Below the pieces are notes generated by a model. It was given only the letters and a program-made list of their open reading frames with translations, was not told the origin of the DNA and made no database searches. A program made the translations under genes and the position numbers. 64,000 bases of DNA, taken from the NCBI GenBank assembly GCA_000002435.2, contig CM018793.1. The stretch is one strand, 5' to 3'. Shown in pieces: positions 1-52,697 of the stretch. The stretch is from Giardia intestinalis. Lineage: Eukaryota. Within the stretch, counting starts at the first letter, position 1. The number at the start of each line of letters is the position of its first letter.

Positions 1-3000
1 ACCTGTTCTGTCCGGCGACCGGGCCGTATCCTCCCTCGCACTCGCACACCTTCTGGTTGGGGGCAGAGTTCGGCGGGCAATCTGCGGCACAGCTCTTCCC
101 GTCGACCTGTATGTTGTGAGAACTGTCGGTGCATGCCGTGCAGGTCTGGTCGGCAGGGTTGCAGGTCTGGCAGCCCGCCGCACAGCCTGCGCTAGGATTC
201 TGTTCGCACCTGTTCTGTCCGGCGACCGGGCCGTATCCTCCCTCGCACTCGCACACCTTCTGGTTGGGGGCAGAGTTCGGCGGGCAATCTGCGGCACAGC
301 TCTTCCCGTCGACCTGTATGTTGTGAGAACTGTCGGTGCATGCCGTGCAGGTCTGGTCGGCAGGGTTGCAGGTCTGGCAGCCCGCCGCACAGCCTGCGCT
401 AGGATTCTGTTCGCACCTGTTCTGTCCGGCGACCGGGCCGTATCCTCCCTCGCACTCGCACACCTTCTGGTTGGGGGCAGAGTTCGGCGGGCAATCTGCG
501 GCACAGCTCTTCCCGTCGACCTGTATGTTGTGAGAACTGTCGGTGCATGCCGTGCAGGTCTGGTCGGCAGGGTTGCAGGTCTGGCAGCCCGCCGCACAGC
601 CTGCGCTAGGATTCTGTTCGCACCTGTTCTGTCCGGCGACCGGGCCGTATCCTCCCTCGCACTCGCACACCTTCTGGTTGGGGGCAGAGTTCGGCGGGCA
701 ATCTGCGGCACAGCTCTTCCCGTCGACCTGTATGTTGTGAGAACTGTCGGTGCATGCCGTGCAGGTCTGGTCGGCAGGGTTGCAGGTCTGGCAGCCCGCC
801 GCACAGCCTGCGCTAGGATTCTGTTCGCACCTGTTCTGTCCGGCGACCGGGCCGTATCCTCCCTCGCACTCGCACACCTTCTGGTTGGGGGCAGAGTTCG
901 GCGGGCAATCTGCGGCACAGCTCTTCCCGTCGACCTGTATGTTGTGAGAACTGTCGGTGCATGCCGTGCAGGTCTGGTCGGCAGGGTTGCAGGTCTGGCA
1001 GCCCGCCGCACAGCCTGCGCTAGGATTCTGTTCGCACCTGTTCTGTCCGGCGACCGGGCCGTATCCTCCCTCGCACTCGCACACCTTCTGGTTGGGGGCA
1101 GAGTTCGGCGGGCAATCTGCGGCACAGCTCTTCCCGTCGACCTGTATGTTGTGAGAACTGTCGGTGCATGCCGTGCAGGTCTGGTCGGCAGGGTTGCAGG
1201 TCTGGCAGCCCGCCGCACAGCCTGCGCTAGGATTCTGTTCGCACCTGTTCTGTCCGGCGACCGGGCCGTATCCTCCCTCGCACTCGCACACCTTCTGGTT
1301 GGGGGCAGAGTTCGGCGGGCAATCTGCGGCACAGCTCTTCCCGTCGACCTGTATGTTGTGAGAACTGTCGGTGCATGCCGTGCAGGTCTGGTCGGCAGGG
1401 TTGCAGGTCTGGCAGCCCGCCGCACAGCCTGCGCTAGGATTCTGTTCGCACCTGTTCTGTCCGGCGACCGGGCCGTATCCTCCCTCGCACTCGCACACCT
1501 TCTGGTTGGGGGCAGAGTTCGGCGGGCAATCTGCGGCACAGCTCTTCCCGTCGACCTGTATGTTGTGAGAACTGTCGGTGCATGCCGTGCAGGTCTGGTC
1601 GGCAGGGTTGCAGGTCTGGCAGCCCGCCGCACAGCCTGCGCTAGGATTCTGTTCGCACCTGTTCTGTCCGGCGACCGGGCCGTATCCTCCCTCGCACTCG
1701 CACACCTTCTGGTTGGGGGCAGAGTTCGGCGGGCAATCTGCGGCACAGCTCTTCCCGTCGACCTGTATGTTGTGAGAACTGTCGGTGCATGCCGTGCAGG
1801 TCTGGTCGGCAGGGTTGCAGGTCTGGCAGCCCGCCGCACAGCCTGCGCTAGGATTCTGTTCGCACCTGTTCTGTCCGGCGACCGGGCCGTATCCTCCCTC
1901 GCACTCGCACACCTTCTGGTTGGGGGCAGAGTTCGGCGGGCAATCTGCGGCACAGCTCTTCCCGTCGACCTGTATGTTGTGAGAACTGTCGGTGCATGCC
2001 GTGCAGGTCTGGTCGGCAGGGTTGCAGGTCTGGCAGCCCGCCGCACAGCCTGCGCTAGGATTCTGTTCGCACCTGTTCTGTCCGGCGACCGGGCCGTATC
2101 CTCCCTCGCACTCGCACACCTTCTGGTTGGGGGCAGAGTTCGGCGGGCAATCTGCGGCACAGCTCTTCCCGTCGACCTGTATGTTGTGAGAACTGTCGGT
2201 GCATGCCGTGCAGGTCTGGTCGGCAGGGTTGCAGGTCTGGCAGCCCGCCGCACAGCCTGCGCTAGGATTCTGTTCGCACCTGTTCTGTCCGGCGACCGGG
2301 CCGTATCCTCCCTCGCACTCGCACACCTTCTGGTTGGGGGCAGAGTTCGGCGGGCAATCTGCGGCACAGCTCTTCCCGTCGACCTGTATGTTGTGAGAAC
2401 TGTCGGTGCATGCCGTGCAGGTCTGGTCGGCAGGGTTGCAGGTCTGGCAGCCCGCCGCACAGCCTGCGCTAGGATTCTGTTCGCACCTGTTCTGTCCGGC
2501 GACCGGGCCGTATCCTCCCTCGCACTCGCACACCTTCTGGTTGGGGGCAGAGTTCGGCGGGCAATCTGCGGCACAGCTCTTCCCGTCGACCTGTATGTTG
2601 TGAGAACTGTCGGTGCATGCCGTGCAGGTCTGGTCGGCAGGGTTGCAGGTCTGGCAGCCCGCCGCACAGCCTGCGCTAGGATTCTGTTCGCACCTGTTCT
2701 GTCCGGCGACCGGGCCGTATCCTCCCTCGCACTCGCACACCTTCTGGTTGGGGGCAGAGTTCGGCGGGCAATCTGCGGCACAGCTCTTCCCGTCGACCTG
2801 TATGTTGTGAGAACTGTCGGTGCATGCCGTGCAGGTCTGGTCGGCAGGGTTGCAGGTCTGGCAGCCCGCCGCACAGCCTGCGCTAGGATTCTGTTCGCAC
2901 CTGTTCTGTCCGGCGACCGGGCCGTATCCTCCCTCGCACTCGCACACCTTCTGGTTGGGGGCAGAGTTCGGCGGGCAATCTGCGGCACAGCTCTTCCCGT

Positions 3001-3292
3001 CGACCTGTATGTTGTGAGAACTGTCGGTGCATGCCGTGCAGGTCTGGTCGGCAGGGTTGCAGGTCTGGCAGCCCGCCGCACAGCCTGCGCTAGGATTCTG
3101 TTCGCACCTGTTCTGTCCGGCGACCGGGCCGTATCCTCCCTCGCACTCGCACACCTTCTGGTTGGGGGCAGAGTTCGGCGGGCAATCTGCGGCACAGCTC
3201 TTCCCGTCGACCTGTATGTTGTGAGAACTGTCGGTGCATGCCGTGCAGGTCTGGTCGGCAGGGTTGCAGGTCTGGCAGCCCGCCGCACAGCT
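1..3292. repeat. Perfect tandem repeat array, 207-bp unit (69 codons), about 15.9 copies in the window, truncated by the window start; coding (see minus-strand CDS)
   Basis: The unit acctgttctgtccggcgacc... recurs at 1, 208, 415 and so on. The track's 65-aa ORFs recur every 207 bp with identical translations, so the copies are 100% identical. Identity is lost at about 3291 (cagcCTgcg becomes cagcTTgcc). Confidence 0.95.
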
Positions 3293-3334
3293 TGCCTGTG
3301 TTACCGCACAAACTAGGAGAAATCCTACCAACAT
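1..3334 (-). CDS. VSP-like cysteine-rich surface protein with 69-aa tandem repeats; N-terminal part only (ATG at 3334-3332), C-terminus lies beyond the window start
   Basis: Manual minus-strand translation from the ATG (plus-strand cat at 3332-3334) gives MLVGFLLVCAVTQA, a signal peptide, then SCAAGCQTCNPADQTCTACTDSSHNIQVDGKSCAADCPPNSAPNQKVCECEGGYGPVAGQNR, repeated with no stops across all copies. Each unit has 10 Cys and CXXC motifs typical of Giardia VSP/HCMP proteins. An in-frame stop lies upstream at 3344-3346. The ORF track omitted this gene because the reading frame runs off the window edge. Confidence 0.8.
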   Translation of the reverse strand, partial: MLVGFLLVCAVTQASCAAGCQTCNPADQTCTACTDSSHNIQVDGKSCAADCPPNSAPNQKVCECEGGYGPVAGQNRCEQNPSAGCAAGCQTCNPADQTCTACTDSSHNIQVDGKSCAADCPPNSAPNQKVCECEGGYGPVAGQNRCEQNPSAGCAAGCQTCNPADQTCTACTDSSHNIQVDGKSCAADCPPNSAPNQKVCECEGGYGPVAGQNRCEQNPSAGCAAGCQTCNPADQTCTACTDSSHNIQVDGKSCAADCPPNSAPNQKVCECEGGYGPVAGQNRCEQNPSAGCAAGCQTCNPADQTCTACTDSSHNIQVDGKSCAADCPPNSAPNQKVCECEGGYGPVAGQNRCEQNPSAGCAAGCQTCNPADQTCTACTDSSHNIQVDGKSCAADCPPNSAPNQKVCECEGGYGPVAGQNRCEQNPSAGCAAGCQTCNPADQTCTACTDSSHNIQVDGKSCAADCPPNSAPNQKVCECEGGYGPVAGQNRCEQNPSAGCAAGCQTCNPADQTCTACTDSSHNIQVDGKSCAADCPPNSAPNQKVCECEGGYGPVAGQNRCEQNPSAGCAAGCQTCNPADQTCTACTDSSHNIQVDGKSCAADCPPNSAPNQKVCECEGGYGPVAGQNRCEQNPSAGCAAGCQTCNPADQTCTACTDSSHNIQVDGKSCAADCPPNSAPNQKVCECEGGYGPVAGQNRCEQNPSAGCAAGCQTCNPADQTCTACTDSSHNIQVDGKSCAADCPPNSAPNQKVCECEGGYGPVAGQNRCEQNPSAGCAAGCQTCNPADQTCTACTDSSHNIQVDGKSCAADCPPNSAPNQKVCECEGGYGPVAGQNRCEQNPSAGCAAGCQTCNPADQTCTACTDSSHNIQVDGKSCAADCPPNSAPNQKVCECEGGYGPVAGQNRCEQNPSAGCAAGCQTCNPADQTCTACTDSSHNIQVDGKSCAADCPPNSAPNQKVCECEGGYGPVAGQNRCEQNPSAGCAAGCQTCNPADQTCTACTDSSHNIQVDGKSCAADCPPNSAPNQKVCECEGGYGPVAGQNRCEQNPSAGCAAGCQTCNPADQTCTACTDSSHNIQVDGKSCAADCPPNSAPNQKVCECEGGYGPVAGQNR

Positions 3335-3916
3335 TAGCCGGATTCATATGCCACTGCCCTTCCGTCAGGCCGGTGTGTTGCCGCGAGCAGTGAGAGACAG
3401 CCGCTCTTGCTCTCTTGATCGGTTGGACTGGAGAAGGACAAGATAGGAGCACATCCATCGGAGGCCAACTGATAGCGCAGTTCTCCCTGGCTTCAGTAGG
3501 AACAGAACCAGTGAGGACCAGACTCAGATCGCACCTCTCTTGTGGAATGATTGGTCGGGGTGCACTCCTGTACATTGCTGTGGAGTATTCGTTGGCTCCC
3601 TCTGCGGGGGCTGGTGTCTTGGTAGTAAACGCATCATCGGTAGATTCCGGTGATGCCTAGTTATTGATTTTGGGGGCAGACGTCTGTTGTCTTATCTGCC
3701 CCAGTGTTTCTGTGCGTTTGGTGGGATGAGTACTAGCACGTGCTGTGGCCGCAGGTAGGACGAGGGGTGCGTAAGCAACACTGTGATGCCTGGCTCAGAA
3801 ACTGATGAAACTACTAATGCGTACACTCAGCACATATAATTATTCGCCACATTGGCAATTACCAGGGGGAGTGCGCCAAATGGGCAAATTTGGTTGGAAC
3901 AAAAAACCGCTGCTTA

Positions 3917-5038
3917 ATGTCCAGAAAATCACCCAGCACAGCTCAGAAGAGCACGCTGAAGCATCGTCATCCCCTCAAATTGAAGTCACTTCCTCGATGG
4001 CTTTCCATACTGCTTGTTGTAATTTATGTCGTTACAGGGATCTTTCAGCCAATTGTCCTAGACTCAATTAGTCGGATGGGTGGAGCCGAGAAGCAGGCTT
4101 TTCTTTTTCCTATCCCTAACTCCATGGGAATGGCCTTACTTATGGCTATTCCTACACGCAAGTCTCACTACTCACGTCGAGCCTCTCTCTATAAGTTTCC
4201 CAAAGAGATAATTGTAATGACTCTGATAGATGTCAGTGCAACGACTCTCACGCTCTTCGGCCAGCTGATGATTGGCTCGGGTCTATATATTATTGTCTAC
4301 TCCTCCCTCACTATTTGGTCAGCTATTGGGTCTTTGTTACTCTTGAAGAGACACTTCACGTGGCCTATGTGGATGGGTGTTGTGGTTGTTACTATTGGAC
4401 TGATGATATCTGGAGTGGGCGCTTTCACCACGTTCGGCCTGTCAACGCTAATTGGAATGGCTGTCACTTTGGTGGGGACCATTCTGCACTCTGGTGTTTA
4501 CTGGGTATCCGAATACTTTTGTCTTCATAAGGAGTACCCAATTCACTCCACTTTCTTGGCCGGCTACATGGGAATCTTTGGGGTTGCAATTTTCCTTTCT
4601 TATGTCACAGGATACACAATTCCTCGGTGGGAGGCACTATTTGTCCAGCCAATGGAAGCTGGTGGTGGATCATACTGGAAAATATTTAGCACCTACCTCC
4701 TATTAATCCTGATTGACTGGGCTCACCTATACGCCCAATTCACAGCTGTCGTGGCTGTAGGCTCCGTGATAGTTGGGATCAACAAGGCAATTAGCTCCAT
4801 CGGTGTCTTCGTTCTTAGTCACTTTCTATTTTGTGAAGTAGATAGTTCTGAGTGCATAGATCTATTTAAAATCCTATCCTTATGCTTCGTTATATCTGGA
4901 GTCATCATATATACTACTGCTTATCATTATTATAAGAAGAAACAGAACCGACTGCAGGGAAGTCAGAAGAGTCCGCAGGAAGATACATCAATTGATCAGT
5001 TGCCAAGTAGTGAAACGCCCCCGCTTAGTTTAGAGTAA
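3917..5038 (+). CDS. Multi-pass membrane protein, SLC35/DMT-like putative transporter (373 aa from the first ATG; the track start at 3890 is a TTG)
   Basis: About 9-10 hydrophobic helices (LSILLVVIYVVTGIF, MGMALLMAIP, VVVVTIGLMISGVGAF, LLLILIDWAHLY, LCFVISGVIIYTT). ATG at 3917 is preceded by tta. Stop at 5036-38. Confidence 0.6.
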   Translation: MSRKSPSTAQKSTLKHRHPLKLKSLPRWLSILLVVIYVVTGIFQPIVLDSISRMGGAEKQAFLFPIPNSMGMALLMAIPTRKSHYSRRASLYKFPKEIIVMTLIDVSATTLTLFGQLMIGSGLYIIVYSSLTIWSAIGSLLLLKRHFTWPMWMGVVVVTIGLMISGVGAFTTFGLSTLIGMAVTLVGTILHSGVYWVSEYFCLHKEYPIHSTFLAGYMGIFGVAIFLSYVTGYTIPRWEALFVQPMEAGGGSYWKIFSTYLLLILIDWAHLYAQFTAVVAVGSVIVGINKAISSIGVFVLSHFLFCEVDSSECIDLFKILSLCFVISGVIIYTTAYHYYKKKQNRLQGSQKSPQEDTSIDQLPSSETPPLSLE

Positions 5039-8000
5039 TTCTAACTGGAAGGATAGCGGTTTTTTCAAACGATCCACAGGTCAGTTTAAAGCTTATGTAG
5101 CCTTCCATAGTTAAGGACAAGGCACCAGAGAACGCAAGCTTTGGAACAGAAAGGGTCATTTTTGCCATCTTTCCCGCCTGGACAGTTCCACTAGCCGGGG
5201 AGATAACGAGATCTAAAAGTTGGGGAGAAGTCGAAATGTGCTTAAACTCGGCCTGGGGCTGTTCTATTGCACACCCACAATATATTTTTGTACTGCCTTG
5301 GAGCGGTACAGTGACCACTGGTCCAATAAAGTACATGGAAACAGGGTGTCGCGAAGCAAAGCACCTACATATAACCAGCTTCTTTGCATCTCCAGAAACA
5401 ATCTCTGTTACGGCCAAGCTTCCATTGGCTTCTGTTACCCCAAACACCCCTATAAGTATTTTGGTCATAATGCTACTTCCTTTAGGCACTACACCTTCAG
5501 ATGCAATAGCGGTTTGCGATATGTTTTCAGAACACTCGTGATATTTCACGTTGTATTTAAAGTCATACTTGTTTTCATTACTGAGAGTCAGTGCAATTAA
5601 ATGCGTATAGGTCTCTGAAGTGTCAACAATTAGTATCGGCGGGGACTCAGTGTAAATGACGTCTGACTGAGAGGCAGTGTAGATATCTGGAAGCGGAAAA
5701 TCTGTTTGTACTAAAGAGCTGGAGCTATCTAAAGTTACAGCCAGGGTAACCTTAACACCATAGCCCTTTAGCTTGAGGATAACATTGTTAAGTCGTTGAC
5801 TTGTGAGCAGAGAACTTGATGACAATTCTATGGTTTCTTCAGTGTACCCCACTCGCCTTGGAGAATACTCGAAGTGGAGTGTGAGGGGCTTCTGTGCTGT
5901 CATAGAGGCTTCTTCAAGGCAGCTTGTTAATATAATATCCGAATCAAAGGCCTCTTCCAGCTGGCGTCTGAATTGAAAATGGTCTCCATAATATTGTTCG
6001 CGATCATAGAATGGAAGAGACTCATTCAGCGATATGACTGCACTTCGGTTTGACACACAACCCAAAGGAACATATCCAAAATTGAGCGTTATGAGGGATT
6101 GATTGTGAGCTAAAATAGTAGGAAGCTTAAGGGCCTCTTGACGCAGCAAGTTAGCTACGTATTTTGATTCAGCTAGCGCAGGCATCTGTTTTGTTATAGG
6201 ATCTTCTGGAATACCTTGTGTTACAACCTGCAATGATCCACCGTTAGCCGTTAATAGTGCAGACGAAGTAGTGCCCTCGGTTGAGTTGAGATCCTCCTTG
6301 AAGGTGAGAGGCGGAATAAGTATTGCATCATCAGGAGCTACATCAAGTTCGTCGCAAAGCCTATTTGGCACGGGTGCTATCACAATAATAGGACGGGCGA
6401 TTAGCAAATTCAACGGGCAAACCAAAAAGGGAGACGCAGCATCTTCTGTCATAATTGGTATGTTAATGGTCAAATGCTGGTCGACAAAGATCTGTTTTTT
6501 CGATTGTACCATTTCATTGGAATCCAGCTTCTTCTGCTTACCTTCTTCCGTATTCACTAGGTCTGTGGTAGTGGGATCATTTTCAACAGAGACATCAGAA
6601 TCGCTCAGAATGGAGCTATTGTCAGGGAGAAGAACAGAGGGGTCCAAATGGCGTCTCTGGATATAAAGGAATTGATTTTTCTTTGTCAGATAATTGATAA
6701 TGTCAGTGGTAGAAGACGTGCCAAGAACTGCCGATGTGTTTGGACTAGGCTCGGCTGTATAAGTTTCAAGGGCATTATGAGAAGGACTAACTGCAGTGGC
6801 AGATATAGGTCTGGATGTCTGGCTCAGATCAAGCAAATCCTTGAGCGCTTCATCTGCATGCTGATCATCTAGAAAAGAAAGTAGTCGGACCAAGAGGGAG
6901 GCAGATGTATTAATTGTTACTGACATTCTATAAATAGATTGTGCAGCGACTACTCCAGCAGTAGGCTTAATACTTAGAAACCCATTAAAGTTAGTCTCCA
7001 TGAACTGAAGAAATGCCGGAGATATAGACCATTTTTTGGGCATGTTAACCGTTGAGCGCAGATAAATTTGCTCTACTCGAAGAATATCTGTAACACTCAT
7101 TCTAAATATATCCATGCTGCTTTGGCAAAGGAGTGAGGGCTGCATAGAAGTAGCACAGATAGTGAAGTTCTTGATGTATCCAAACTCCGACTCAATCGAG
7201 CATTTCACTTGAAACTTCTTTGCATTATTGGGCAAGATCCCCAAGTGCATGCGGACTTCTTGGCCAGGATAGAGAAGAATCGTGCCATTATCTGGCCCTG
7301 CTAATAAAGAGACATCTGGAACAGGTTTAGTCAAAAGCGCAACATGCTGCGGCAATGCACTGCTATTCCGTACGATGACAGGGACATTCGTCACATGCCA
7401 CAATGCTATTTCACCCAAATTAACTGATGACCGGTCCTGAAGGTCTAAGGTGTCATTAATCGTTAGATATCCTTCTGTTAATGTACGATTGGCTCGCGTG
7501 GCTAATGTCCCCACAGTACGCATTGTACGAACAGTTTTTGTAACCTGTGAAAGAACACTAGACTTGGCACGTATAGAGGCTGACTCCTCACTCGCAGATG
7601 GGTGGGTATAAGGAAGCTTGACAAGAAGCTCCGAGCTGGTGAAGCAGGTGCTTAACCGAACAAGAATCGGTTCGGGCTGACCAGATACTCTGATTAGTAT
7701 ATTAAATGAACAACTAATATACCCACCTACAGAACTCAAGTTCCGTAACTCTGCTTTTGCGTTAGCTACTCTTCCTTGCAGCAAGGGCAAATCTTGGTCT
7801 CTAATGGTTTGTAGGTTTGATGATAGCTGATCACACTCGAGGGTTAACCTTTGAAATTCTTCTTGACTGGATGTAGAGCTTGTGGTCTTGCTCTTGCTAG
7901 GCGTCTTTTTTTCTACTGCCTTTGCCAGCTCTTTAGCCCTTCCAGAACCTAATGTAGACGAGGGTTTAGAATCATCTGCGTCTCGAAGTGCATCTTCCAC

Positions 8001-11000
8001 CGCTTGCTTCTTTTGCAGCAGAGTTGCCAATTTGGTCTCCAGCTCCTGCTGATAGTTCAATAGCGAATCTAGCTCCTGTAATTGCTGCTTCAGTTGCTCA
8101 TTGAGAGCTCTAACATCATCCCCCAAGACTACAGATGGAAGGGTAGGGGCATATTGGTCGACTCCGGAGATGAAAATATCTGCCCACGATTCTAAGGGGC
8201 ACTTGGTGGCAGGCGGTCTACGGTTTTCCTTGATTGTGTATTCTAGATCAGTGTAGTCGACCAGTTCTTGGTACTGCTCTACCTGATTAAGAATCCTCAT
8301 CAATTCAGCCTTACTTTCGCATAGTAAGCTGACCTTTATATGAAGATCCCCCGTTGTCTTGCAGATAATTGTTTCGGAGACGTTGGAGGAGCAAATGGTT
8401 TTCATGAGAGTTGGTACAAAGACAGTTATTGGTCTACTATTGTTGTCAACAGACCGCAGCCTTATCTCAGAGCTGTATGTTGAATTGTAAAAACAAGTCA
8501 GGTAATCTATACTGCTGCTTAAAGCATACACTCCTGATTGGAGGGTGTATGCATTTACAAGCAAAGTGTTGGTAAATTCGCCACTACTTTGCAAGACAGC
8601 ATAATCATCGTCGGACTTGTCCAAGCAAGGAAAGATAGGTTTAACGGTTAGGTTAAGTTTTAGTATCATGTCTAAGAGAAAGCGAAGCGGAGAATGCACG
8701 ACAGGAAGGGCCACAATAGACATCGGGGGAAGAACTATAGACAGTTCTATATTACTGTGCACCGTATACTCAAGCAAATCGTTAGCTACGTTATATGCTT
8801 GGGCCCACGCAGTCATGTCTGTCTCTGTCTTCTCCTTCACGCGCCTGTCTAGCTCTGACTTAAAGAACACGGGATCCAGTAGTGTGTTGCTGGCAGTATC
8901 CTCTTTAGAGCTCTGCTGGTCGTTCGTGGTGAGAACATCCTTTGTACCTCGAGTACTGGGCGGCCTTCCTCCTCCTTTATTTGTTGATGAATTCGCTGTG
9001 CCTCCGTTCCCTTTTTGGAGAGCTACTGGCTGCTCTAGGCTTTTTTCGTAAGCCCTGCGCTCATCCTCTAGTTGTGCAGTAATTGCTTGCAAATTCTCAG
9101 AAAGAATATCCTTCAGCTTTTCTTTCTTAAGGCGAGCAAAGTATGGCTCGAAATGAAATGCCTTTCCTTCATAAAATGCCAAGAACGGAGTTCCAATTTG
9201 AAGTAGAGGAGCAGTCCTGGCTGACTCGTTGTGTCCCGTCACTGAAATATTGGATAGGGCTTCTACCATCAATTCTGTGCTGAGCTCTTCCGGTTGAGGC
9301 CCTAACTCAGTGATTGCCACGTCAATAGCATCATCACGTGTAATGTTCGGTACCACTGTAGTATCGTTATCTGTAGAGTGTGTCTGCTTTTGCTGAATAA
9401 GGCCTGCTTTTGGTGATCGTTGTCTAGCAACAAGAGACTTCGCAGCCGGTGGATTTACCTCCGCCGGTGTATTACTGGCAAGGATCTCCTCAACCCTTTT
9501 ATTCAGTGCAGAAACATATGCTTCCACTTCTCGATGCCGAGTTTCAACTTCGTCTGTTGAGTATAGCTTAGAGGGGATTCGTGGAGATGTCGATCTGGTT
9601 GCTTGTTGCATGTATGAGTACACCGTGTCTATAGAAACACTGGTAGATCTAAAGGTTTGGGGAATTGTGCGGTCAAGTAGCATTCCTTTTCTTCTCGACA
9701 TAGATCCTCGCAAAGTAGATGGGGACGACGACTGGGCGTCGAAAGTGAGGTGCATCTGTTCGCTGAGCTGCTTCTCCATAGAAAAGGGTCTAGATGTAGA
9801 ATGCGCCTTCACGTTATCATTTGCAATTTGCTGTATTTCAGTTAAGCTACCGGTTAATATGGTTTGTGGTACTGGGATACCAAGCAGACTGCTGTGAAGA
9901 GCACATGCATCCAATCTTATCCTTACTAGTGCAGGCAACGCACCACTATTGGACAGATAAAATGCCTCCTGTGAGACTCCGTGTGGAGGCGTTGCCAACG
10001 TGATAAGCTCTCTCCCACCATCTTTATTTAATGCTAGAGACGACAAGTTCATAGTTTGTGACAAGGTAGCGCCTAGATCTGAAATAATTGCTCCATTGAT
10101 ATTTGTATGGATGAGCGTGGCCTTTGTTGCCAGGGTTTCTGGAGAAGAATTACGTAAAGAAATGGAAATCTCATATACTTTTCTCACTAATTCAAGATTT
10201 TTTAAGATAAGAATTGCTATTTGGCGCGGATAACAGGTAATCGGAACGTGAAGCTCTCCAGTTTGGTATTTTATGGTGAGGGAAGTGTCTATAACAGTTA
10301 AGCACGCTTTTTCATTTAGTGGAGGCGTAAATATGATCGTTACTGATGTCTTTGCTCCAGAGGCCATAAATCCACTGGGTGTATATGTAAACTTTAGCAA
10401 ATGAAGAACTTGTGGTTCTGGCTCAAGAACTTTAAATGCAGCAAGCCCTGCTGATACGTTAGTCACTTGGATTACAAACGACTTAGACTGCCCAGGGGCG
10501 TAGTCAAAAAAGATAACCGCCGAGGGATGGCAGAGAAATGCTGAAGAGCTACTAAGGTGTGATGACATCACTGTCTGCGTTTGAATAGCACAAGGCATGT
10601 CCAATGTTTTCAGCTTCCTAAGATGGGACGACGCTAACTTCTTGGCACCTAGTCGTTCGGACGCCTGACTAGATACGATAGGTTTAGCGACCGGCAACTT
10701 CTGAGTATTTGTTTTGTCTCTTTTCGTGGTTGAGAAGCTTTCCGGTGGTGGGGGCGGGGCATGGTCGTAGGCCAGGGCTACCTCGTTATCATCGTCACTG
10801 CTCGGCCATGCATCAAAGTCTATCTCCCTGACCTCCTTCTTTGCATCTGCTCCTTTCCCACGAGCTGGCACTTGGGTAGGTGAAGGTCGTCGCTGCTCTT
10901 TGGAGGAAGTACGTGTAGCCTCTTGTAAATCAGCAGCAACTTGGGTCGTTGTATTTGCCGGTGTTGTGTTTTTTGGAAGCATATCGTAAAAGGGGTCCTT

Positions 11001-12266
11001 ACAAAGGTAAGACATAGGATCTGCACGACTGGGGGAAGACTTGTTCTTTGATGCTGCCAGAATGGCTGATGTGCTGATAAGCCTTTGCTCTTCCGCTTTG
11101 TATGCTTCATGGTGTGAGATATCAGGCTCTAGACCACCAGACCTTGTGCGCAGCCCAAGTCCCACTGAAGGAGGAACAATATTTTTTGCGACAACAGACA
11201 CAGGGTCCCTAAGATGCTTAGAACGAGTAGACTGATAGAGGACCTCACACGGATCATCAAGTCCCGTTACCCGCGTGATTGTTTCTGCACTTCTGTTCAC
11301 AGAAGAAATACTCTTTGCTTTTATAGTTTTCTGGCGTTTAGTGGCCTCACAATCCTTATAGTACTGTAGCTCGCGGCGAGCCATTTCTGTAGCAAACTCT
11401 TCAGCGGCCTTTTTAGAAAGAAGTAACTGCTTTTTCCGTGCTTTAATATAGGTTGCTAATAATCTCTTTTGGTCTTCTTCTCGGAACTTTTTATAAACAT
11501 TGTCAGTGGTCACAATTCCATGCTCGATATTTGCAGCAATTTGCTCGTGGAATGCAGTGATTTCCTTGAGTCTCTGAGCCGTTCGTTTGTCTTCCTCATC
11601 AAGACGTCGCTGGACTCGTATGGAGTGTTCAGAATTGATTTTCTTTATTGTTTCCATTAGGTGAGCAAATGCGTTTTCTCTCTTTTGTTCTGCTTCAAGT
11701 ATGGCTTTGTCATACAGCTGTTGAATCTCCCTCGCCTTGCTAAGACGAGCACCATATTTGTCTAAGAATTCTCTATGTGCCTGTTTGGCTGCAGCTGTGC
11801 TATCCCTTGTCATAGGCCCATAGCTCTGTCCCTGGGAGGAGATGATATTGGATTTAGCAATGCTTCTGAGTGAAAGGCCTCCTGGCACCACTGCATCATG
11901 CTCAGGCATACTAGTTAAATCCTTCCTGTCTTTATGAGAGTGCGATCCCGTTGTAACAAGATCTCCCATTGCCCTCTTTGACTCCTTTAGCCGAGCCTCG
12001 TGAGCCGCCAGCTCCCGTTCTTCTCGGTCTACTTCTGTCATCAGCCTCTCCAAAAGATTATGCATATGTTCTATCTTATAGATTAGTGAGGAAAATTCTG
12101 AGTATAGATCGGAAAAGCGTTCATCAAAACTGTCACTGGGTCCAGATTGCAGGCCCAGTTCTACATTATGAAATTCTGTCGACACACGCTCATACTCCTT
12201 CCATAATGCCTCGTAGCGTGAGTACTCTTGGGACAGCCGTGAATTTATAACAGCCAATCGTGCCAT
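5025..12266 (-). CDS. Large (2413 aa) coiled-coil protein with several ASH/MSP-fold (PapD-like) domains; candidate cilia/flagella-associated protein (Hydin/CFAP-like)
   Basis: ATG (cat) at 12264-66 and stop at 5025-27, with a 14-bp 3' overlap with the convergent transporter gene. Three segments have an ASH/MSP-like beta-sandwich pattern: FDYAPGQSKSFVIQVTNVSAGLAAFKV...SVTIIFTPP; PGQEVRMHLGILPNNAKKFQVKC; and the C-terminal PASGTVQAGKMAKMTLSVPKLAFSG. Long heptad-like stretches also occur (LNEQLKQQLQELDSLLNYQQELETKLATLLQKKQ). Confidence 0.55.
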   Translation of the reverse strand: MARLAVINSRLSQEYSRYEALWKEYERVSTEFHNVELGLQSGPSDSFDERFSDLYSEFSSLIYKIEHMHNLLERLMTEVDREERELAAHEARLKESKRAMGDLVTTGSHSHKDRKDLTSMPEHDAVVPGGLSLRSIAKSNIISSQGQSYGPMTRDSTAAAKQAHREFLDKYGARLSKAREIQQLYDKAILEAEQKRENAFAHLMETIKKINSEHSIRVQRRLDEEDKRTAQRLKEITAFHEQIAANIEHGIVTTDNVYKKFREEDQKRLLATYIKARKKQLLLSKKAAEEFATEMARRELQYYKDCEATKRQKTIKAKSISSVNRSAETITRVTGLDDPCEVLYQSTRSKHLRDPVSVVAKNIVPPSVGLGLRTRSGGLEPDISHHEAYKAEEQRLISTSAILAASKNKSSPSRADPMSYLCKDPFYDMLPKNTTPANTTTQVAADLQEATRTSSKEQRRPSPTQVPARGKGADAKKEVREIDFDAWPSSDDDNEVALAYDHAPPPPPESFSTTKRDKTNTQKLPVAKPIVSSQASERLGAKKLASSHLRKLKTLDMPCAIQTQTVMSSHLSSSSAFLCHPSAVIFFDYAPGQSKSFVIQVTNVSAGLAAFKVLEPEPQVLHLLKFTYTPSGFMASGAKTSVTIIFTPPLNEKACLTVIDTSLTIKYQTGELHVPITCYPRQIAILILKNLELVRKVYEISISLRNSSPETLATKATLIHTNINGAIISDLGATLSQTMNLSSLALNKDGGRELITLATPPHGVSQEAFYLSNSGALPALVRIRLDACALHSSLLGIPVPQTILTGSLTEIQQIANDNVKAHSTSRPFSMEKQLSEQMHLTFDAQSSSPSTLRGSMSRRKGMLLDRTIPQTFRSTSVSIDTVYSYMQQATRSTSPRIPSKLYSTDEVETRHREVEAYVSALNKRVEEILASNTPAEVNPPAAKSLVARQRSPKAGLIQQKQTHSTDNDTTVVPNITRDDAIDVAITELGPQPEELSTELMVEALSNISVTGHNESARTAPLLQIGTPFLAFYEGKAFHFEPYFARLKKEKLKDILSENLQAITAQLEDERRAYEKSLEQPVALQKGNGGTANSSTNKGGGRPPSTRGTKDVLTTNDQQSSKEDTASNTLLDPVFFKSELDRRVKEKTETDMTAWAQAYNVANDLLEYTVHSNIELSIVLPPMSIVALPVVHSPLRFLLDMILKLNLTVKPIFPCLDKSDDDYAVLQSSGEFTNTLLVNAYTLQSGVYALSSSIDYLTCFYNSTYSSEIRLRSVDNNSRPITVFVPTLMKTICSSNVSETIICKTTGDLHIKVSLLCESKAELMRILNQVEQYQELVDYTDLEYTIKENRRPPATKCPLESWADIFISGVDQYAPTLPSVVLGDDVRALNEQLKQQLQELDSLLNYQQELETKLATLLQKKQAVEDALRDADDSKPSSTLGSGRAKELAKAVEKKTPSKSKTTSSTSSQEEFQRLTLECDQLSSNLQTIRDQDLPLLQGRVANAKAELRNLSSVGGYISCSFNILIRVSGQPEPILVRLSTCFTSSELLVKLPYTHPSASEESASIRAKSSVLSQVTKTVRTMRTVGTLATRANRTLTEGYLTINDTLDLQDRSSVNLGEIALWHVTNVPVIVRNSSALPQHVALLTKPVPDVSLLAGPDNGTILLYPGQEVRMHLGILPNNAKKFQVKCSIESEFGYIKNFTICATSMQPSLLCQSSMDIFRMSVTDILRVEQIYLRSTVNMPKKWSISPAFLQFMETNFNGFLSIKPTAGVVAAQSIYRMSVTINTSASLLVRLLSFLDDQHADEALKDLLDLSQTSRPISATAVSPSHNALETYTAEPSPNTSAVLGTSSTTDIINYLTKKNQFLYIQRRHLDPSVLLPDNSSILSDSDVSVENDPTTTDLVNTEEGKQKKLDSNEMVQSKKQIFVDQHLTINIPIMTEDAASPFLVCPLNLLIARPIIVIAPVPNRLCDELDVAPDDAILIPPLTFKEDLNSTEGTTSSALLTANGGSLQVVTQGIPEDPITKQMPALAESKYVANLLRQEALKLPTILAHNQSLITLNFGYVPLGCVSNRSAVISLNESLPFYDREQYYGDHFQFRRQLEEAFDSDIILTSCLEEASMTAQKPLTLHFEYSPRRVGYTEETIELSSSSLLTSQRLNNVILKLKGYGVKVTLAVTLDSSSSLVQTDFPLPDIYTASQSDVIYTESPPILIVDTSETYTHLIALTLSNENKYDFKYNVKYHECSENISQTAIASEGVVPKGSSIMTKILIGVFGVTEANGSLAVTEIVSGDAKKLVICRCFASRHPVSMYFIGPVVTVPLQGSTKIYCGCAIEQPQAEFKHISTSPQLLDLVISPASGTVQAGKMAKMTLSVPKLAFSGALSLTMEGYISFKLTCGSFEKTAILPVRITLN

Positions 12267-14203: not shown

Positions 14204-15259
14204 TCATGCCAACTTCTGGTTGAGACGACAGTAGCTGTTGTAAATAGCAAGCACAAACCGCTCGAGGATACTAGAATCCGACACTCTCCGTGCTACATAC
14301 AGTCCTGCTCGTTGGTAAGCATCTCCAACAGCATGGCGGAGAGATTCGGGCACCTGTGCTTCAAAGCAAAGGCTTCTCCAAAGTTCACGAATAACATCCA
14401 AGGCAGGATAACCGATGCGAACAACAGATTTGTGTAAATACTCTATTAGAGATTCGACAGGTAAAGACACATCCGTCATCTTCTCAATGAGCGAGGCAAT
14501 AAGCTCATCCGGGATCTTCCCAGCCAAAAGGTGAACATGCTTTGGAGAAAGCTCTTCCTCCATATTCTGACAAAACTGAACTGTTGCCTGCAGCAAGGTT
14601 ATGGCAGCGCGCATATCGCCTTGGGAAAGGGTGGCCACTTCTCCAAGAGCCTCGGAAGCAGATGAGGACAGCTTTTCGTTTGCATTTCTAAGTTGGTGCA
14701 TCTCAGCATAGCAGATAGATTCAAGCCTATCGATAATTAAAGGTCGGGGCAGCGAGGAGAATGCAAAGCGTGCACAGCGTGAAACAATAGGGGCTATAAT
14801 CTGACTAGGATAGTTGCAGATGATACAGAATCTCGTGGTTTCCGAGAAGTCTTCTATGATGCGCCTCAACGCCGCCTGGGACTCTCGTGTAAGGGCGTCT
14901 GCTTCGTCAAGGATAATTACCTGGAAATCAGGACAGGGGTAAACGGCCTTTACGTCATCCGGCGCTACAGCAATCACGGTTCGTGCGATGCTCTTGATTC
15001 TCTCTCGCACGATCTTAATGCCTCTGTCGGTACTAGCGTTAAACTCACTGACCCGTGCTCGCCAGAAACGCGGGCCAAAGAATTCATGCATCATCGCGTG
15101 GATAAGCGTCGTCTTTCCCGTCCCAGCGGGTCCATACAGTAGCATATGAGGCATGTTTCCCGACTCAATACACCTCTTGGCTGCACGGACTGCGTGATCT
15201 TGGTGCATTATGCGGTCAAGCAACAGCGGTCGGTGCTTTTCAGTCCACGGCGCAGACAT
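14204..15259 (-). CDS. Replication factor C small subunit (clamp-loader AAA+ ATPase, RFC2-5 class)
   Basis: EKHRP, Walker A LLYGPAGTGKTT, Walker B ILDEADALT, sensor/arginine finger SQAALRRIIE, and the RFC-box SRC motif in CNYPSQIIAPIVSRCARFAF. ATG (cat) at 15257-59. Confidence 0.9.
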   Translation of the reverse strand: MSAPWTEKHRPLLLDRIMHQDHAVRAAKRCIESGNMPHMLLYGPAGTGKTTLIHAMMHEFFGPRFWRARVSEFNASTDRGIKIVRERIKSIARTVIAVAPDDVKAVYPCPDFQVIILDEADALTRESQAALRRIIEDFSETTRFCIICNYPSQIIAPIVSRCARFAFSSLPRPLIIDRLESICYAEMHQLRNANEKLSSSASEALGEVATLSQGDMRAAITLLQATVQFCQNMEEELSPKHVHLLAGKIPDELIASLIEKMTDVSLPVESLIEYLHKSVVRIGYPALDVIRELWRSLCFEAQVPESLRHAVGDAYQRAGLYVARRVSDSSILERFVLAIYNSYCRLNQKLA

Positions 15260-25172: not shown

Positions 25173-26171
25173 CTAAATACTAATTTCCTCTTTGGCATTG
25201 CCCTCACTTTGCATTGCCATTCTTGATTTAGCTTCGCGTATCTCTTTGTATGCACTTGCTAATATATCTTGCTCACTAACTTTCAAGCCGTCGGCGTCCA
25301 TTTCTAAGACCCCGAGGGCAAGATTTTTTCTTTCACAAACAGATTGCTTTGTAATATTTTTAAATTCTATTCCTGTTTGATCTGCAGCATCTATAAGCAA
25401 GAACAGCAGGAGAATGACATATTCTGGCACAGTATACTTATCTGGCACAACGCGGTCTTCAACGTATTTCATATGGTCATGAAGTTTCAGTAGCGCCCTT
25501 CTTTGCTCCCCGCTGAGTTGGAGCTGATCTCCAAGGAGAGGAATAAACTCGCATGTACTTTGCAGGGCGTTGGGCTGCACCTTTTCTTTGATATCCTTCA
25601 ACTGCCGGTCCAATGGAGAGACCTTGCCTCCGATTCGTCCACAGCCTTGGATCTCCTTTTGGAGACGCTGTCGGGCAGTGGTAGAAGACATTCCTAAGTA
25701 CATCGATCGACCAGTCTTCTCATTGCGTTTACGCTCCTCTTGTTCAGCCAGTTCCACAGCCAAAAGGAGACAACTAGCCGCGATGACAACAATACTCCTG
25801 CTTTTCAGAAGCGTCTCTTTGTTCATCTTGTACTCGTTGAATATAGTGAGCGCCATGTTGGCATACTCTGCGTTGATTTTGCAGCGAGCACTCAAGCGTC
25901 TTATTTCGGTACTTGCAGCCTGAATGGTAGTGTACGCAGATGTCCTTTTGTCACCTGTGATGAAGATTTGCCGTTGAAAATCTGTGTGCTGTCGACCTGC
26001 AACGTTTCTGGCCTCTGCAGATTCCGAATCTCGAAAATTGCGGAACCCGAGACCTTCGTCCACGATTGCATTGGCCCATGCTCCACAGCGTGAGCACACA
26101 TATCTACCGATATCTTCGATTCTCACAAGCATGTTTGGGTCTGCATTGCACACAGGGCAGGGATTATTCAT
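25173..26171 (-). CDS. Transcription initiation factor TFIIB (or closely related BRF-type factor)
   Basis: N-terminal zinc ribbon CPVCN...RYVCSRCG, followed by the B-reader/linker-like GFRNFRDSE and two cyclin-like repeats. The 332-aa length is typical of TFIIB. ATG (cat) at 26169-71. Confidence 0.7.
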   Translation of the reverse strand: MNNPCPVCNADPNMLVRIEDIGRYVCSRCGAWANAIVDEGLGFRNFRDSESAEARNVAGRQHTDFQRQIFITGDKRTSAYTTIQAASTEIRRLSARCKINAEYANMALTIFNEYKMNKETLLKSRSIVVIAASCLLLAVELAEQEERKRNEKTGRSMYLGMSSTTARQRLQKEIQGCGRIGGKVSPLDRQLKDIKEKVQPNALQSTCEFIPLLGDQLQLSGEQRRALLKLHDHMKYVEDRVVPDKYTVPEYVILLLFLLIDAADQTGIEFKNITKQSVCERKNLALGVLEMDADGLKVSEQDILASAYKEIREAKSRMAMQSEGNAKEEISI

Positions 26172-29076: not shown

Positions 29077-32000
29077 CTAAAAGTACCCCGTCCCACAATA
29101 TGGGGACTTAGCATCGATGTCACTCTTTTTCAAGGATGTCTTGTTCTGGAGAATCAGATCCCAGCACCCAGGGAAATCAACTGGTATTGTCACGTGTTGA
29201 ATTGTATTTTCGTAGTAGTGATCTACACCGAAGTTCTGATCAATCTCAGCCAATTCCTCCTCACTCTGTGGTGGCGATGATGAGTAGCTCAGTGCCTCGT
29301 ACATCATGAGATAGCTATCTCTGGTCTTTACAGAGTCTGGAAGCATTGAGCTAGATGAGCTCTCGCATGGGACGAGGATTGCATAGATATCACAGTTGTT
29401 CGGATAGCTCAGACTCTCTGGGCTTATGTCCACGATTGTATTTAGCATATAATCATATCCAATCCCGTACAGTCGCATATTTGTGACCCTGACGGTGGCA
29501 AGCGGCATAGTGTGCTTGCGCTTCTGTCTTCTGTTATCTATCTTAGAGCATTGAATGCAATTTTGCCCATCATATCGCAAAAACCAATCTCTATAATACG
29601 TGGGGTCCAGAAGGGTAAAAACAATGGAATAATACCCCATTTCCAGGTTATATTTCAGACACATCTGGAGTTTGAAAAGCTTGAGGATGTCATGCATGAT
29701 CGGCTGATAGATATCGCCGCGAACAGACCATATGTTTTCAGAAAGCACTTTGATTGGATGAGACTGCTCTACCAACGAGTTGGATGTGAAGCCATATGTA
29801 AGCCTTCTGACCCTTTGATAGGTCTTACTGAGCAACAGGACAGCGTAAAGTGTTGGTGGTAAGGCCTTCTCGGCCCGGTCAACTTCTACAGATGAATAAG
29901 CGTTGCTGTGTATAGAGTGTGAAGCTATGTTGGATATTACGTCAGTTGATAGCATGAGACTGAATGCATCACGAACAGTACTTTGGCATCTCGATAGCTC
30001 TGGCCGCAAAAAGCATATCGGTTGAAGGGTATCTGCCAGCCGTTCTTGTAGTTCTTGAGTCCGTATTATTTCTGCAACGTTGGTATGTTTCATGGCAAAC
30101 TTTTCTAAGTCCATTGTAATGAGTTTAATTTTTTCCACTAAATCTATCAGAGTTCTTTCTGACATAGTCTCCGGAAAATGCAGTAGAGCATCCATCCTCG
30201 AAGATGCGTGAATTGTCACCATATGGCGCCGACTACTCAGAATCTTTTGTAGCTCTGCTCGAGAATAGGATCTGAATCCATCTGGGTCAGTGGCATTGAG
30301 CAACACGTTTGCGTTCAGTTCGTCCCCTGCTAACGTCATAAGCCGCGCACTTGTAGCCTGTGGGGCTCCATCCACCTGGCGCTGGTCTGCGTAAGTGTAA
30401 TCTGTCTTGAAAGAACACATAGATACATCGTCAATGGACGATTCAGCAGAAGAGAACACCGACCTGGAGTTGCTGATCTCCACATCACTGTTGTGTATGC
30501 TGGTTAGTGATGGATCAAAATCAGTGCGTTCCGCTTCCGCTTGATCGTGGGTGATTGTAGGGACCTCTTCATAGAATGAGGCTACGTTTAGTGACTTACT
30601 ATTCAGGTAGCTTATTGCAACACTGACAGAAGCATTAATCGGTGATCCAATCAATATAGCCGAGGACTTGCGATATATCAAGGAATAGAGGTTAGATAGG
30701 ACGTAACTGGTGTTTATCTCAGAACACGTATGACACAGAACAGAGTATATCATTGGCAAGTTTGCGATATGCGAAGCAGCTCCTTGTTTTTTAGTAAAGA
30801 AGAGCCGACGACCCTGGTTAGCGAGTGGCAGCGTTTTCAGTTGCGATATAAGGTGTACATACAAAAGGAGCATTTCATTGTCATCTACCTTGAACATTCC
30901 ATTACTGATCAGCATGCTGTATCTAATGGCGAGGAGCGTCAATGCTTTGACAAAGGAAGACTCGTAGACAGAGCAGCCAACTGAATGGGACAGTGTGTAG
31001 TTTCGCATAGTACTGATTGCATGTTGCATGGCATCCAAGAATGTTGTAGGTCGCTGCACATACAATTGGACGGGTCTACAAATGTCAATAAAGACGGCAA
31101 GCTGCACGCTAATGTTTTCCGGAGTTGCAGCTCCGCTTTCTGTCCCAAACTTCTGACAACAAGACAAAGGAACAAGGACATACACGAGATACGCTGGCTT
31201 GACGCCTGAACTGTACAGGTCTATTAAGTGTGCTAATGAATAATGAGGGTTATACCGTATATCAACTATTACGACATTAGTGGCTAAATACGAGGTGGCA
31301 GGTGCTGGCTGACAAACATAGTCTGGAAAGCCATACTTTGGTATAATTTCTTTTGAAAAAATTGCTTGCAGATATGGAAGGATTGCCAGGCCTTCGTCAT
31401 AGTACAGTAAAACGGTGCGCGAGCCGCGGCCCAATGATACCTGTTGTGTTGCCTCAAAATTGTATTCTTCCTGAAGATTCTTGAATAGCTGTGCCACATG
31501 GTCCAAATTGGCTGGATTTATGACTGAAAGGTCAAGGGGTCCATCGGCATCGCCGACAGCTCTCGTCTGAGTCTCTTTCCCTTCGGCTTGTAAATTACCT
31601 GCATCTATCGCTACCGCTGTTGCACTGGCCACTCGCGAAAGAAGGCCGTCGCTCAGGAGCTCGGCCTCATTGTTAGCTGAGCACCAGTCTGCCTTTGCTT
31701 TAGCGCGCAGGGATGCATCGTCCTGAAGAAACTTATGAATTGCTGATGGTGGAGTTATCCTACAGAAGAACTCCATTGTGCTAAGGATGAGATCTTGTCG
31801 AAGAGCTACAATAAGGAGAAGCGCGACCCAAATGTTCTCAAAGCTGGGATACTGCAGGCTAGGTGGCAGAGGAACCAACCGTGTGCTGTACGCTGCCAAC
31901 TCGTCATGCACATAGGGCGGGACAATCGGAACATGCGTCGTTTTCAGAGTCCTCATGCCCTCTTCTATCTCTTGCGCTACCGTGGCATCTAGGTTGATGT

Positions 32001-48339: not shown

Positions 48340-48340
48340 C

Positions 48341-48830
48341 AGTTGTACGGTGATTCACTCCACCCACCGGTTGCTTCCAGCGCTGTGCTGCCGGGCCGCC
48401 TGCAGGCACGATTCAAAAATCTCACGAGTAAATTCTCGTTCAAGCTCTGGCCAGTTCAGAGACGACTGTTGGTCATTGATAACATAATGAGAGAGTCCTC
48501 TCTAGTGATATATCCAGAGCCTGGCACATTCCTCTGCCATTTCATGAGCGTGTGCTCAATCCGGGTGTGCGCGTCGGTCTGCCCAGGATTCAGGCCTTCT
48601 CGCAGACCCTCTGCTCTACCGGTGGTGCCTCTCCTTGGCCTGCCGTCTGGTGGGTGAAGCTCGGGTTGCTGTCTTTTTTAGATGCTCCCATCTGTCAAGG
48701 GCTGCCACCGGGCTCTCCGCTGGCTGGGCCCTCGGTGCCCGTCCGGCTGTGGCTCGAGTCAGGGCTCCCACAGTCGCGGTCACCTGGGTCTCAGTGGGCC
48801 GGCTGGTGGGACCGGGTGGGGGGTGTTGTA
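48341..48830 (+). repeat. Arm A of an inverted repeat (VSP-3'-flank-like element, about 85% identical to arm B), abutting the start codon of the giant gene
   Basis: The reverse complement of 48345-48690 aligns with 50600-50870 and with 59031-59360. Shared blocks include ccaggattcaggccttctcgcagaccctctgctctaccggtgg and cttttttagatgc. Homology continues, with more decay, to about 48830 versus about 50420. Confidence 0.75.
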
Positions 48831-50870: not shown

Positions 50871-50925
50871 AATGCACCGCAGGCGGACCTATCAGCACAT
50901 CTACACAAGCTACGCACAGTAACGC

Positions 50926-50932
50926 GTTTACT
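50926..50932 (-). promoter_or_regulatory. Giardia polyadenylation signal AGTAAAC, 10 nt after the VSP stop (TAGACTTAGGTAGTAAAC)
   Basis: Matches the established Giardia AGTPuAAPy consensus. The context TAG-ACTTAGGT-AGTAAAC is the conserved VSP 3' end. Confidence 0.7.
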
Positions 50933-50940
50933 ACCTAAGT

Positions 50941-52668: not shown

Positions 52669-52682
52669 TATCACTGTACAGC

Positions 52683-52689: not shown

Positions 52690-52697
52690 ACCTAAGT

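What the first reader, a model, noticed from the sequence alone, without database searches (positions are those of the whole stretch)
1..3334. VSP-like surface antigen built from at least 16 perfectly identical 69-aa Cys-rich repeats, encoded antisense to the track's long ORF
The minus strand has an ATG at 3334, a 14-aa signal peptide, then an in-frame 207-bp repeat array with no stops (10 Cys per unit, CXXC motifs) running off the window start. Repeat-bearing VSPs are known in Giardia, but a 69-aa unit present at 100% nucleotide identity in every copy points to very recent expansion, strong concerted evolution, or assembly collapse. The plus-strand 1066-aa ORF and the 65-aa ORFs are mirror-image artefacts of this.
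Basis: seen in the sequence. Interest (0 to 1): 0.7.

Follow-up and report, generated by a model that had tools for sequence, protein, structure and literature searches.

The report
Known Giardia VSP gene with repeats

Summary
Window 1-3291 is periodic at 207 bp with zero mismatches (15.9 copies). The minus-strand ATG at 3334 sits inside a TAATGTT initiator and opens a stop-free frame: signal peptide, 15 complete 69-aa units and one 61-aa partial unit, with 10 Cys per unit.

The gene is Giardia intestinalis WB GL50803_00112693 (vsp51). The 2007 gene model (XP_001708046.1, 258 aa) is 100% identical but holds only 2.9 units, followed by a transmembrane helix and a CRGKA tail. Adam et al. 2010 list it as "TR207" and warn that assembly may have condensed such arrays. 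Tables built on the long-read reference give XP_001708046.2: chr5, 4296 nt, 1431 aa, 203 Cys. That length equals 19.9 units. The same tables list the identical 207-nt consensus.

If the window comes from that reference, it lacks the last 962 nt of the gene.

The plus-strand 1066-aa ORF has no ATG codon at all. The 65-aa ORFs start at GTG. Both are artefacts of bacterial-code ORF calling.

In-frame tandem repeats occur in 36 of 136 WB VSPs, and several others visibly repeat identical units.

The parts
1..3334 (-). 5' 3334 nt of the VSP coding sequence (GL50803_00112693 / vsp51). It is partial and runs off the window start. The reference CDS is 4296 nt, so 962 nt (4 units, the 3' unique part and the stop codon) are missing if the window comes from that reference.
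   Evidence: Frame with no stop over 1111 codons. 100% identity to XP_001708046.1. Published tables give 4296 nt and 1431 aa. Arithmetic.
3330..3336 (-). VSP initiator / Kozak-like element TAATGTT, containing the start ATG (3334-3332).
   Evidence: Read directly from the sequence. Listed as 'TAATGTT' for this gene in both catalogues.
3284..3334 (-). Signal peptide MLVGFLLVCAVTQASCA: 17 aa by SignalP as tabulated.
   Evidence: Hydrophobic N-terminus with Kyte-Doolittle means of about 3. SignalP column of the published table. At least 9 other WB VSPs begin with the same MLVGFLLV leader.
1..3295 (-). In-frame tandem array: 207 bp = 69 aa per unit, 15.9 copies in the window, 100% nucleotide identity. 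Each unit has 10 Cys, 2 CXXC, 2 CXXXC, 1 CXC and an EGF-2-like motif.
   Evidence: The published 207-nt consensus for GL50803_112693 matches the window exactly 15 times.
3335..3585 (-). About 250 nt of 5' flank shared by a subgroup of VSP genes. It runs on into the first 9 codons.
   Evidence: Very few mismatches over the ~100 nt next to the ATG, more further upstream, against the flank of a non-syntenic VSP of isolate DH; similarity is lost upstream of about 3585. Short-read contigs from many runs all end at window 3538-3617.
116..3316 (+). Mirror-image open frame (1066 'aa'); not a gene.
   Evidence: GTG 'start', no Met codon in 1067 codons, Ala/Arg/Val/Leu-rich low-complexity translation. 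No Pfam hit.

Best explanation
Window 1-3334 (minus strand) is the 5' three-quarters of Giardia intestinalis WB gene GL50803_00112693 (vsp51, XP_001708046.2, chromosome 5). It is one of about 136 variant-specific surface protein genes. Shown here or on record: the product is a type I membrane protein with a signal peptide, an ectodomain made only of about 20 identical 69-aa cysteine-rich modules, a conserved transmembrane helix and the 5-residue cytoplasmic tail CRGKA. From established VSP biology: one VSP at a time coats the trophozoite, and switching between genes gives antigenic variation. This gene is one silent or low-level member of the repertoire in the clones sampled so far. Inferred: the array arose by amplifying the single module of an 8595-like short VSP through unequal sister-chromatid exchange or replication slippage. 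Continued expansion and contraction would keep the units identical. As in VspA6, the repeats would present a highly multivalent, probably immunodominant epitope.
For: Periodicity and reading frame. 100% identity to 'VSP [Giardia lamblia ATCC 50803]', which carries the TM helix and CRGKA tail. Adam et al. 2010, supplementary file 1: vsp51, GL50803_112693, 'TR207', chr 5, TAATGTT, 258 aa, 33 Cys. Their text warns that repeat numbers may be condensed by assembly. Rodriguez-Walker et al. preprint tables: 4296 nt, 1431 aa, 203 Cys, 40 CXXC, signal peptide, TM, CRGKA, extended PAS, and a 207-nt consensus identical to the window. All 10 Cys of the unit are invariant in relatives from isolates DH and GS_B, a WB paralogue and a metagenome contig. 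Third-codon-position differences dominate against the two more distant relatives (28 versus 16 and 12; 21 versus 14 and 10). GC3 is 0.75 in this frame, and it is the only open frame with an ATG. The one-unit paralogue GL50803_8595 (127 aa, 73% identity) has the same type of leader, the same tail and an identical PAS motif. Pfam VSP scores 78 bits on the 2007 model.
Against: The TM helix, CRGKA tail and poly(A) signal lie outside the window. They are taken from the database protein and published tables for the same gene. The repeat portion alone does not reach Pfam VSP. Reported expression is only 0-9.7 TPM, so production of the protein is not shown. Copy number comes from assemblies only: 2.9, at least 15.9 and 19.9. 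Polishing could also have erased rare differences between units. The amplification mechanism is an inference.
Confidence: 0.96

Rival explanations
1. The plus-strand 1066-aa ORF (116-3316) is the real gene and the VSP frame is its mirror image.
For: It is open across the whole array. Antisense RNA over silent VSP genes is common in Giardia.
Against: It has no ATG codon anywhere in 1067 codons and 'starts' only at GTG under the bacterial code, whereas Giardia is a eukaryote. It has no Pfam hit. All database homology, the Cys conservation and the codon-position bias support the minus frame.
Confidence: 0.01
2. The array as written is partly an assembly product. The true copy number differs, varies between the four genome copies, or the units carry rare differences that consensus polishing homogenised.
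For: The 2007 assembly holds 2.9 units and the reference-based tables imply 19.9. Adam et al. warn about condensed arrays and report allelic copy-number differences for vspA6 and vspC5. The WB long-read assembly was corrected using mapped Illumina reads. Short-read assemblies cannot cross the locus.
Against: The 207-bp unit and its sequence are the same in the Sanger-era model, in the long-read-based tables and in this window. A 4.1-kb array is within the span of single PacBio reads. Other WB repeat VSPs also show identical units. This rival concerns copy number only, not what the feature is.
Confidence: 0.25
3. The gene is an intact-looking but never-used relic, in effect a pseudogene.
For: Expression is low, 0-9.7 TPM in 14 samples. 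I found no report of a clone expressing it.
Against: All defining VSP elements are intact, and it is classed as a VSP, not a pseudo-VSP, in the curated set. Low RNA is the normal state of every non-selected VSP. A 4.3-kb frame without stops would not persist without selection or very recent origin.
Confidence: 0.05

Closest known systems
GL50803_00112693 itself (vsp51; XP_001708046.1 and .2), Giardia intestinalis WB chromosome 5
   Same: Identical start, leader, 207-nt unit and Inr. The window is this gene.
   Different: The window holds 15.9 units and lacks the 3' end. The 2007 model has 2.9 units (258 aa) and the current model 19.9 units (1431 aa).
vspC5 (vsp90): 66 bp of 5' sequence, then about 25 copies of a 105-bp repeat running up to the conserved 3' end
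   Same: Same architecture: almost the whole exposed part of the protein consists of tandem repeats.
   Different: The unit is 35 aa rather than 69 aa and has a different sequence. Allelic copy-number variants are documented for vspC5 but not for this gene.
vspA6 / CRP170 (vsp67): 99 bp, then about 22-23 copies of a 195-bp repeat, then 1.3 kb of unique sequence
   Same: A long in-frame array of a roughly 65-69-aa Cys-rich unit directly after the leader. Its repeats are reported to be immunodominant. It has a low-copy relative, vspA6-S1, just as GL50803_8595 relates to this gene.
   Different: vspA6 has a long non-repetitive segment before the tail; this gene has none.
GL50803_008595 (vsp46, 127 aa), the one-unit paralogue
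   Same: 73% identical. Leader MLVGFLLVFVVTQA, one copy of the same 10-Cys module, identical TM helix and CRGKA tail, and an identical extended PAS motif.
   Different: One unit instead of about 20, and on chromosome 2.
GL50803_0050290 and other WB repeat VSPs (for example 50163, 50070, 137717)
   Same: Tandem arrays of related modules of about 70-75 aa (AGCxTC...QTCxxC...KVQ..GKxC...CPxNS...VCEC..GY...C) whose units are visibly identical.
   Different: Different unit sequences and more copies (proteins of 1900-2300 aa).

Membership tests
Giardia variant-specific surface protein (VSP) | N-terminal signal peptide | tested here: met
   MLVGFLLVCAVTQA has a strongly hydrophobic core. SignalP-positive in the published table.
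Giardia variant-specific surface protein (VSP) | Cys-rich ectodomain with multiple CXXC motifs | tested here: met
   10 Cys and 2 CXXC per 69-aa unit; 160 Cys and 32 CXXC within the window.
Giardia variant-specific surface protein (VSP) | Initiator / Kozak-like PyAATGTT around the start codon | tested here: met
   TAATGTT at 3336-3330, minus strand.
Giardia variant-specific surface protein (VSP) | Conserved transmembrane helix followed by the CRGKA cytoplasmic tail | tested here: met
   Not in the window. It is present in XP_001708046.1, which is 100% identical over the leader and units, and in the published table for XP_001708046.2. One older table shows 'CRGKL' for this row; that discrepancy is unresolved.
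Giardia variant-specific surface protein (VSP) | Extended poly(A) signal downstream of the stop codon | not testable with these tools
   It lies beyond the window start. The published motif table lists GACTTAGGTAGTAAATGCTG at +9 to +28 for this gene (file 5).
Giardia variant-specific surface protein (VSP) | Pfam PF03302 match | tested here: inconclusive
   The repeat-only part from the window gives no hit at E<=0.01. The 2007 full model gives 78 bits over its last unit plus tail. The literature finds this domain in only 19 of 136 VSPs, so it does not define the family.
Giardia variant-specific surface protein (VSP) | Surface coat location and mutually exclusive expression | not testable with these tools
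   Only bulk RNA values of 0-9.7 TPM are available.
Tandem-repeat VSP subgroup (36 of 136 WB VSPs) | In-frame tandem repeats within the ectodomain | tested here: met
   Listed as consensus no. 10 in the published repeat table and as TR207.
High-cysteine / Cys-rich membrane proteins (HCMP/CRMP) | Cys-rich membrane protein lacking both the Inr and the CRGKA tail | tested here: not met
   This gene has both, so it is not a CRMP. The gene at 60455-62626 (+) in the same window does fit that class.

The most novel reading that the evidence does not exclude
The perfect identity of about 20 units reflects ongoing, rapid expansion and contraction of the array. On this reading the four genome copies, WB sublines or sub-assemblage AI isolates would carry different unit numbers, giving size variants of one antigen as a second, finer layer of surface variation. 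The evidence here (2.9, at least 15.9 and 19.9 units in different sequence versions) does not separate this from assembly effects.
Probability: 0.3. Interest if true: 0.25.

Novelty: already known. Interest (0 to 1): 0.1.

Why it matters
It matters little beyond bookkeeping. The gene, its 207-bp repeat and the warning that such arrays were condensed in the first WB assembly are all published. The current annotation already carries the expanded 1431-aa product. Three practical points are useful. First, bacterial-code ORF tracks on Giardia sequence produce long spurious antisense ORFs over GC-rich repeat VSPs. Second, short-read assemblies cannot cross this locus, so copy number is known only from long-read assembly. 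Third, antisense RNA is not evidence against a VSP gene model.

Tried and rejected
1. I tried to walk past the window start using exact-protein look-ups of the two neighbouring genes. Only short-read Logan contigs were returned, and all end at window 3538-3617, upstream of the VSP. The 3' end could therefore not be read as DNA.

2. Exact-protein look-ups of P0001 and P0002 found nothing on record.

3. A full-text search for '112693' returned only irrelevant numeric matches. Supplements of two other Giardia papers did not contain the gene. The 1994 papers on vspA6 and on repeat copy number are not held.

4. AlphaFold2 on two units with a 5-sequence alignment gave mean pLDDT 57 and pTM 0.30, as short beta-hairpins only. 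That is too poor for a fold search, so none was run.

5. A sequence search of the PDB gave no hit at E<=1.

6. The bacterial promoter/terminator scan of the 5' flank is irrelevant for a eukaryote and was ignored.

7. I considered and rejected three alternatives: the plus-strand ORF as a gene, the second open minus-strand frame (no Met), and a CRMP/HCMP classification.
Full report
**Observation**

Reading the minus strand of 1-4200 shows an ATG at 3334-3332 inside the string TAATGTT, followed by a highly regular sequence. Tandem Repeats Finder reports a single array at 1-3295 with period 207, 15.9 copies and no indels. A base-by-base comparison at lag 207 finds no mismatch for x up to 3084, so 1-3291 is perfectly periodic.

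Translation from 3334 gives 1111 codons with no stop. These are MLVGFLLVCAVTQAS, then 15 identical 69-aa units (CAAGCQTCNPADQTCTACTDSSHNIQVDGKSCAADCPPNSAPNQKVCECEGGYGPVAGQNRCEQNPSAG), then a 61-aa partial unit cut by the window edge. Each unit has 10 Cys. Each unit also carries two CXXC motifs and one EGF-2-like C-x-C-x2-G-Y-x8-C motif.

**Which strand codes**

Three frames are open over the array. The plus-strand 1066-codon frame has no Met codon and 'starts' at GTG only under the bacterial code used by the ORF lister. The second minus-strand frame also has no Met. The 65-aa plus-strand ORFs all start at GTG. Only the VSP frame has an ATG, and its third-position GC is 0.75.

A database search with the leader plus three units returns five proteins. 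All are Giardia VSPs or VSP fragments. The unit aligns to single modules in proteins from isolates DH (AHGT01) and GS_B (AHHH01), in the WB paralogue GL50803_8595 and in a metagenome contig. All ten Cys are invariant in that alignment.

Against the two more distant relatives, DNA differences concentrate at codon position 3 (28 versus 16 and 12; 21 versus 14 and 10). Against the DH paralogue they are evenly spread (11, 10, 9). The plus-strand translation has no Pfam hit. The minus-strand frame is the gene.

**Identity of the gene**

The top hit, XP_001708046.1 'VSP [Giardia lamblia ATCC 50803]' (258 aa), is 100% identical. It has only two full units and one near-complete unit. It then ends ...[48 protein letters not shown], which is the conserved VSP membrane anchor and tail.

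Adam et al. 2010 (PMC2996952) list this gene in their supplementary file 1. The entry reads: vsp51, clade III, GL50803_112693, 'TR207', 207 nt per repeat, 2 repeats, chromosome 5, Inr TAATGTT, 258 aa, 33 Cys. Their text reports 30 WB vsp genes with tandem repeats of 105-516 bp. [quoted passage not shown] It also cites allelic copy-number differences for vspA6 and vspC5.

The supplementary tables of Rodriguez-Walker et al. (bioRxiv 10.1101/2022.03.07.483299) give the current model:

- Gene GL50803_00112693, protein XP_001708046.2, on NC_051860.1; chromosome 5 in that paper's tables.
- CDS 4296 nt, protein 1431 aa, Inr taatgtt.
- 203 Cys, with 20 CXC, 40 CXXC and 40 CXXXC motifs.
- Signal peptide MLVGFLLVCAVTQASCA, one TM helix, tail CRGKA.
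- An extended poly(A) motif, GACTTAGGTAGTAAATGCTG.
- A 207-nt repeat consensus that matches the window exactly 15 times.

The length fits the arithmetic: 1431 aa = 15 + 19x69 + 62 + 43, which is 19.9 units. The expected Cys count of 203 also agrees. If the window is taken from that reference, its first base lies 962 nt before the end of the gene (four units, the tail region and the stop codon).

**Context**

The rest of the window also fits Giardia:

- It is dense with long intron-free ORFs. They include a CFAP74-like protein (5025-12266, minus), an RFC-like AAA ATPase (14204-15259, minus) and a TFIIB-repeat protein (25173-26171, minus). Gene calls on matching Logan contigs add a kinase with ankyrin repeats.
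- There are three more Cys-rich genes at 50.9-54.5 kb and 60.4-62.6 kb.
- GC is about 0.45 in the housekeeping part and 0.52-0.64 around the VSP genes. This agrees with the gene-poor VSP neighbourhoods described for the WB long-read assembly.

About 250 nt upstream of the ATG, plus the first nine codons, is closely similar to the flank of a non-syntenic DH VSP. Mismatches are very few in the ~100 nt next to the ATG, and similarity is lost further upstream. Short-read contigs from many sequencing runs all stop at window 3538-3617, where this shared element begins. At least nine other WB VSPs start with MLVGFLLV. The literature notes that groups of VSP genes share their upstream sequences.

**How it most likely works**

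Shown here or on record: the product is a type I membrane protein whose whole ectodomain consists of about 20 identical 10-Cys modules.

From established VSP biology: one VSP at a time forms the trophozoite coat, and switching between genes gives antigenic variation. Repeats were immunodominant in VspA6.

Inferred: the array arose by amplifying the single module of an 8595-like short VSP. That paralogue has the same type of leader, the same tail and an identical PAS motif. The likely mechanism is unequal exchange or replication slippage, and continuing turnover would keep the units identical.

Reported RNA levels are 0-9.7 TPM in 14 samples. That is the normal state of a non-selected VSP.

**Structure**

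AlphaFold2 on two units with a shallow alignment gave only low-confidence short beta-hairpins (pLDDT 57). No PDB relative was found by sequence. The literature reports the same difficulty and mentions resemblance to EGF-receptor domains and furin-like repeats.

**Comparison and novelty**

The gene meets every defining VSP feature that can be examined. The features outside the window are documented for the same gene. It belongs to the repeat-bearing subgroup, 36 of 136 WB VSPs. Several of these show long runs of identical units.

Its architecture is that of vspC5, with repeats running up to the conserved 3' end. Nothing here is new. The only difference between sources is copy number: 2.9 in the collapsed 2007 assembly, at least 15.9 in the window and 19.9 in the current model.

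Only 12-20% of VSP genes have more sense than antisense transcripts; the rest have more antisense than sense, or no transcripts at all.

**Verdict**

The gene is already known, and I score interest at 0.1.

Noticed in passing
window 52701-54461 (-): A second complete VSP gene: 587 aa, leader MFYAVLLIGLMLEMARA, CAATGTT initiator at its ATG, CRGKA tail, Pfam VSP 310 bits.
   Followed up: partly
window 50944-52659 (-): A VSP-like open frame of 572 codons with a CRGKA tail (Pfam VSP 124 bits), lying directly downstream of the previous gene. It has no start codon or signal peptide at its 5' end, so it looks like a pseudo-VSP in a head-to-tail array. It is 45% identical over 629 aa to the plus-strand Cys-rich gene at 60455-62626.
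   Followed up: partly
window 60455-62626 (+): A 724-aa Cys-rich membrane protein (85 Cys, 31 CXXC) with a VSP-type TM helix but the tail ...CWWFIYRGRK and no PyAATGTT initiator. This fits the HCMP/CRMP class rather than VSP.
   Followed up: partly
window 48000-60400: GC rises from about 0.45 to 0.52-0.58, and long ATG-started ORFs are scarce outside the VSP genes. This is the gene-poor, GC-rich neighbourhood reported around VSP genes.
   Followed up: partly
window 29077-48339 (-): A giant ORF of 6420 aa with no Pfam match in either half.
   Followed up: partly
window 3335-3617 (-): About 250 nt of 5' flank is shared with a non-syntenic VSP of isolate DH (locus L012). Every short-read contig recovered from public runs breaks at window 3538-3617, which implies that the element is multicopy within the genome.
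   Followed up: partly
window 1-3300 (-), second open frame: A third stop-free frame (1100 codons, Arg/Ala/Pro/Thr-rich, no Met) runs through the array alongside the VSP frame and the plus-strand frame. This follows from the GC-rich 207-bp unit having no stop in three of its six frames.
   Followed up: yes
window 1: The window begins 2 nt before the point in the unit where, in the 258-aa model, the last unit leaves the repeat (GQNRC|ISSS). So the window holds x.9 copies in the same phase as the complete gene (15.9 versus 19.9). This is probably coincidence, at about 3%.
   Followed up: no
literature: Adam et al. 2010, supplementary file 1, row vsp51: That table shows 'CRGKL' as an alternative C-terminal motif for this gene. 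The database protein XP_001708046.1 and the 2022 table both end in CRGKA. The cause is unknown; it may be a column or row shift in the stored text, or an early sequence difference.
   Followed up: no
window 50443-50475: A short 9-bp tandem repeat, CCCCACCAG x 3.8, in the GC-rich stretch just downstream of the pseudo-VSP.
   Followed up: no
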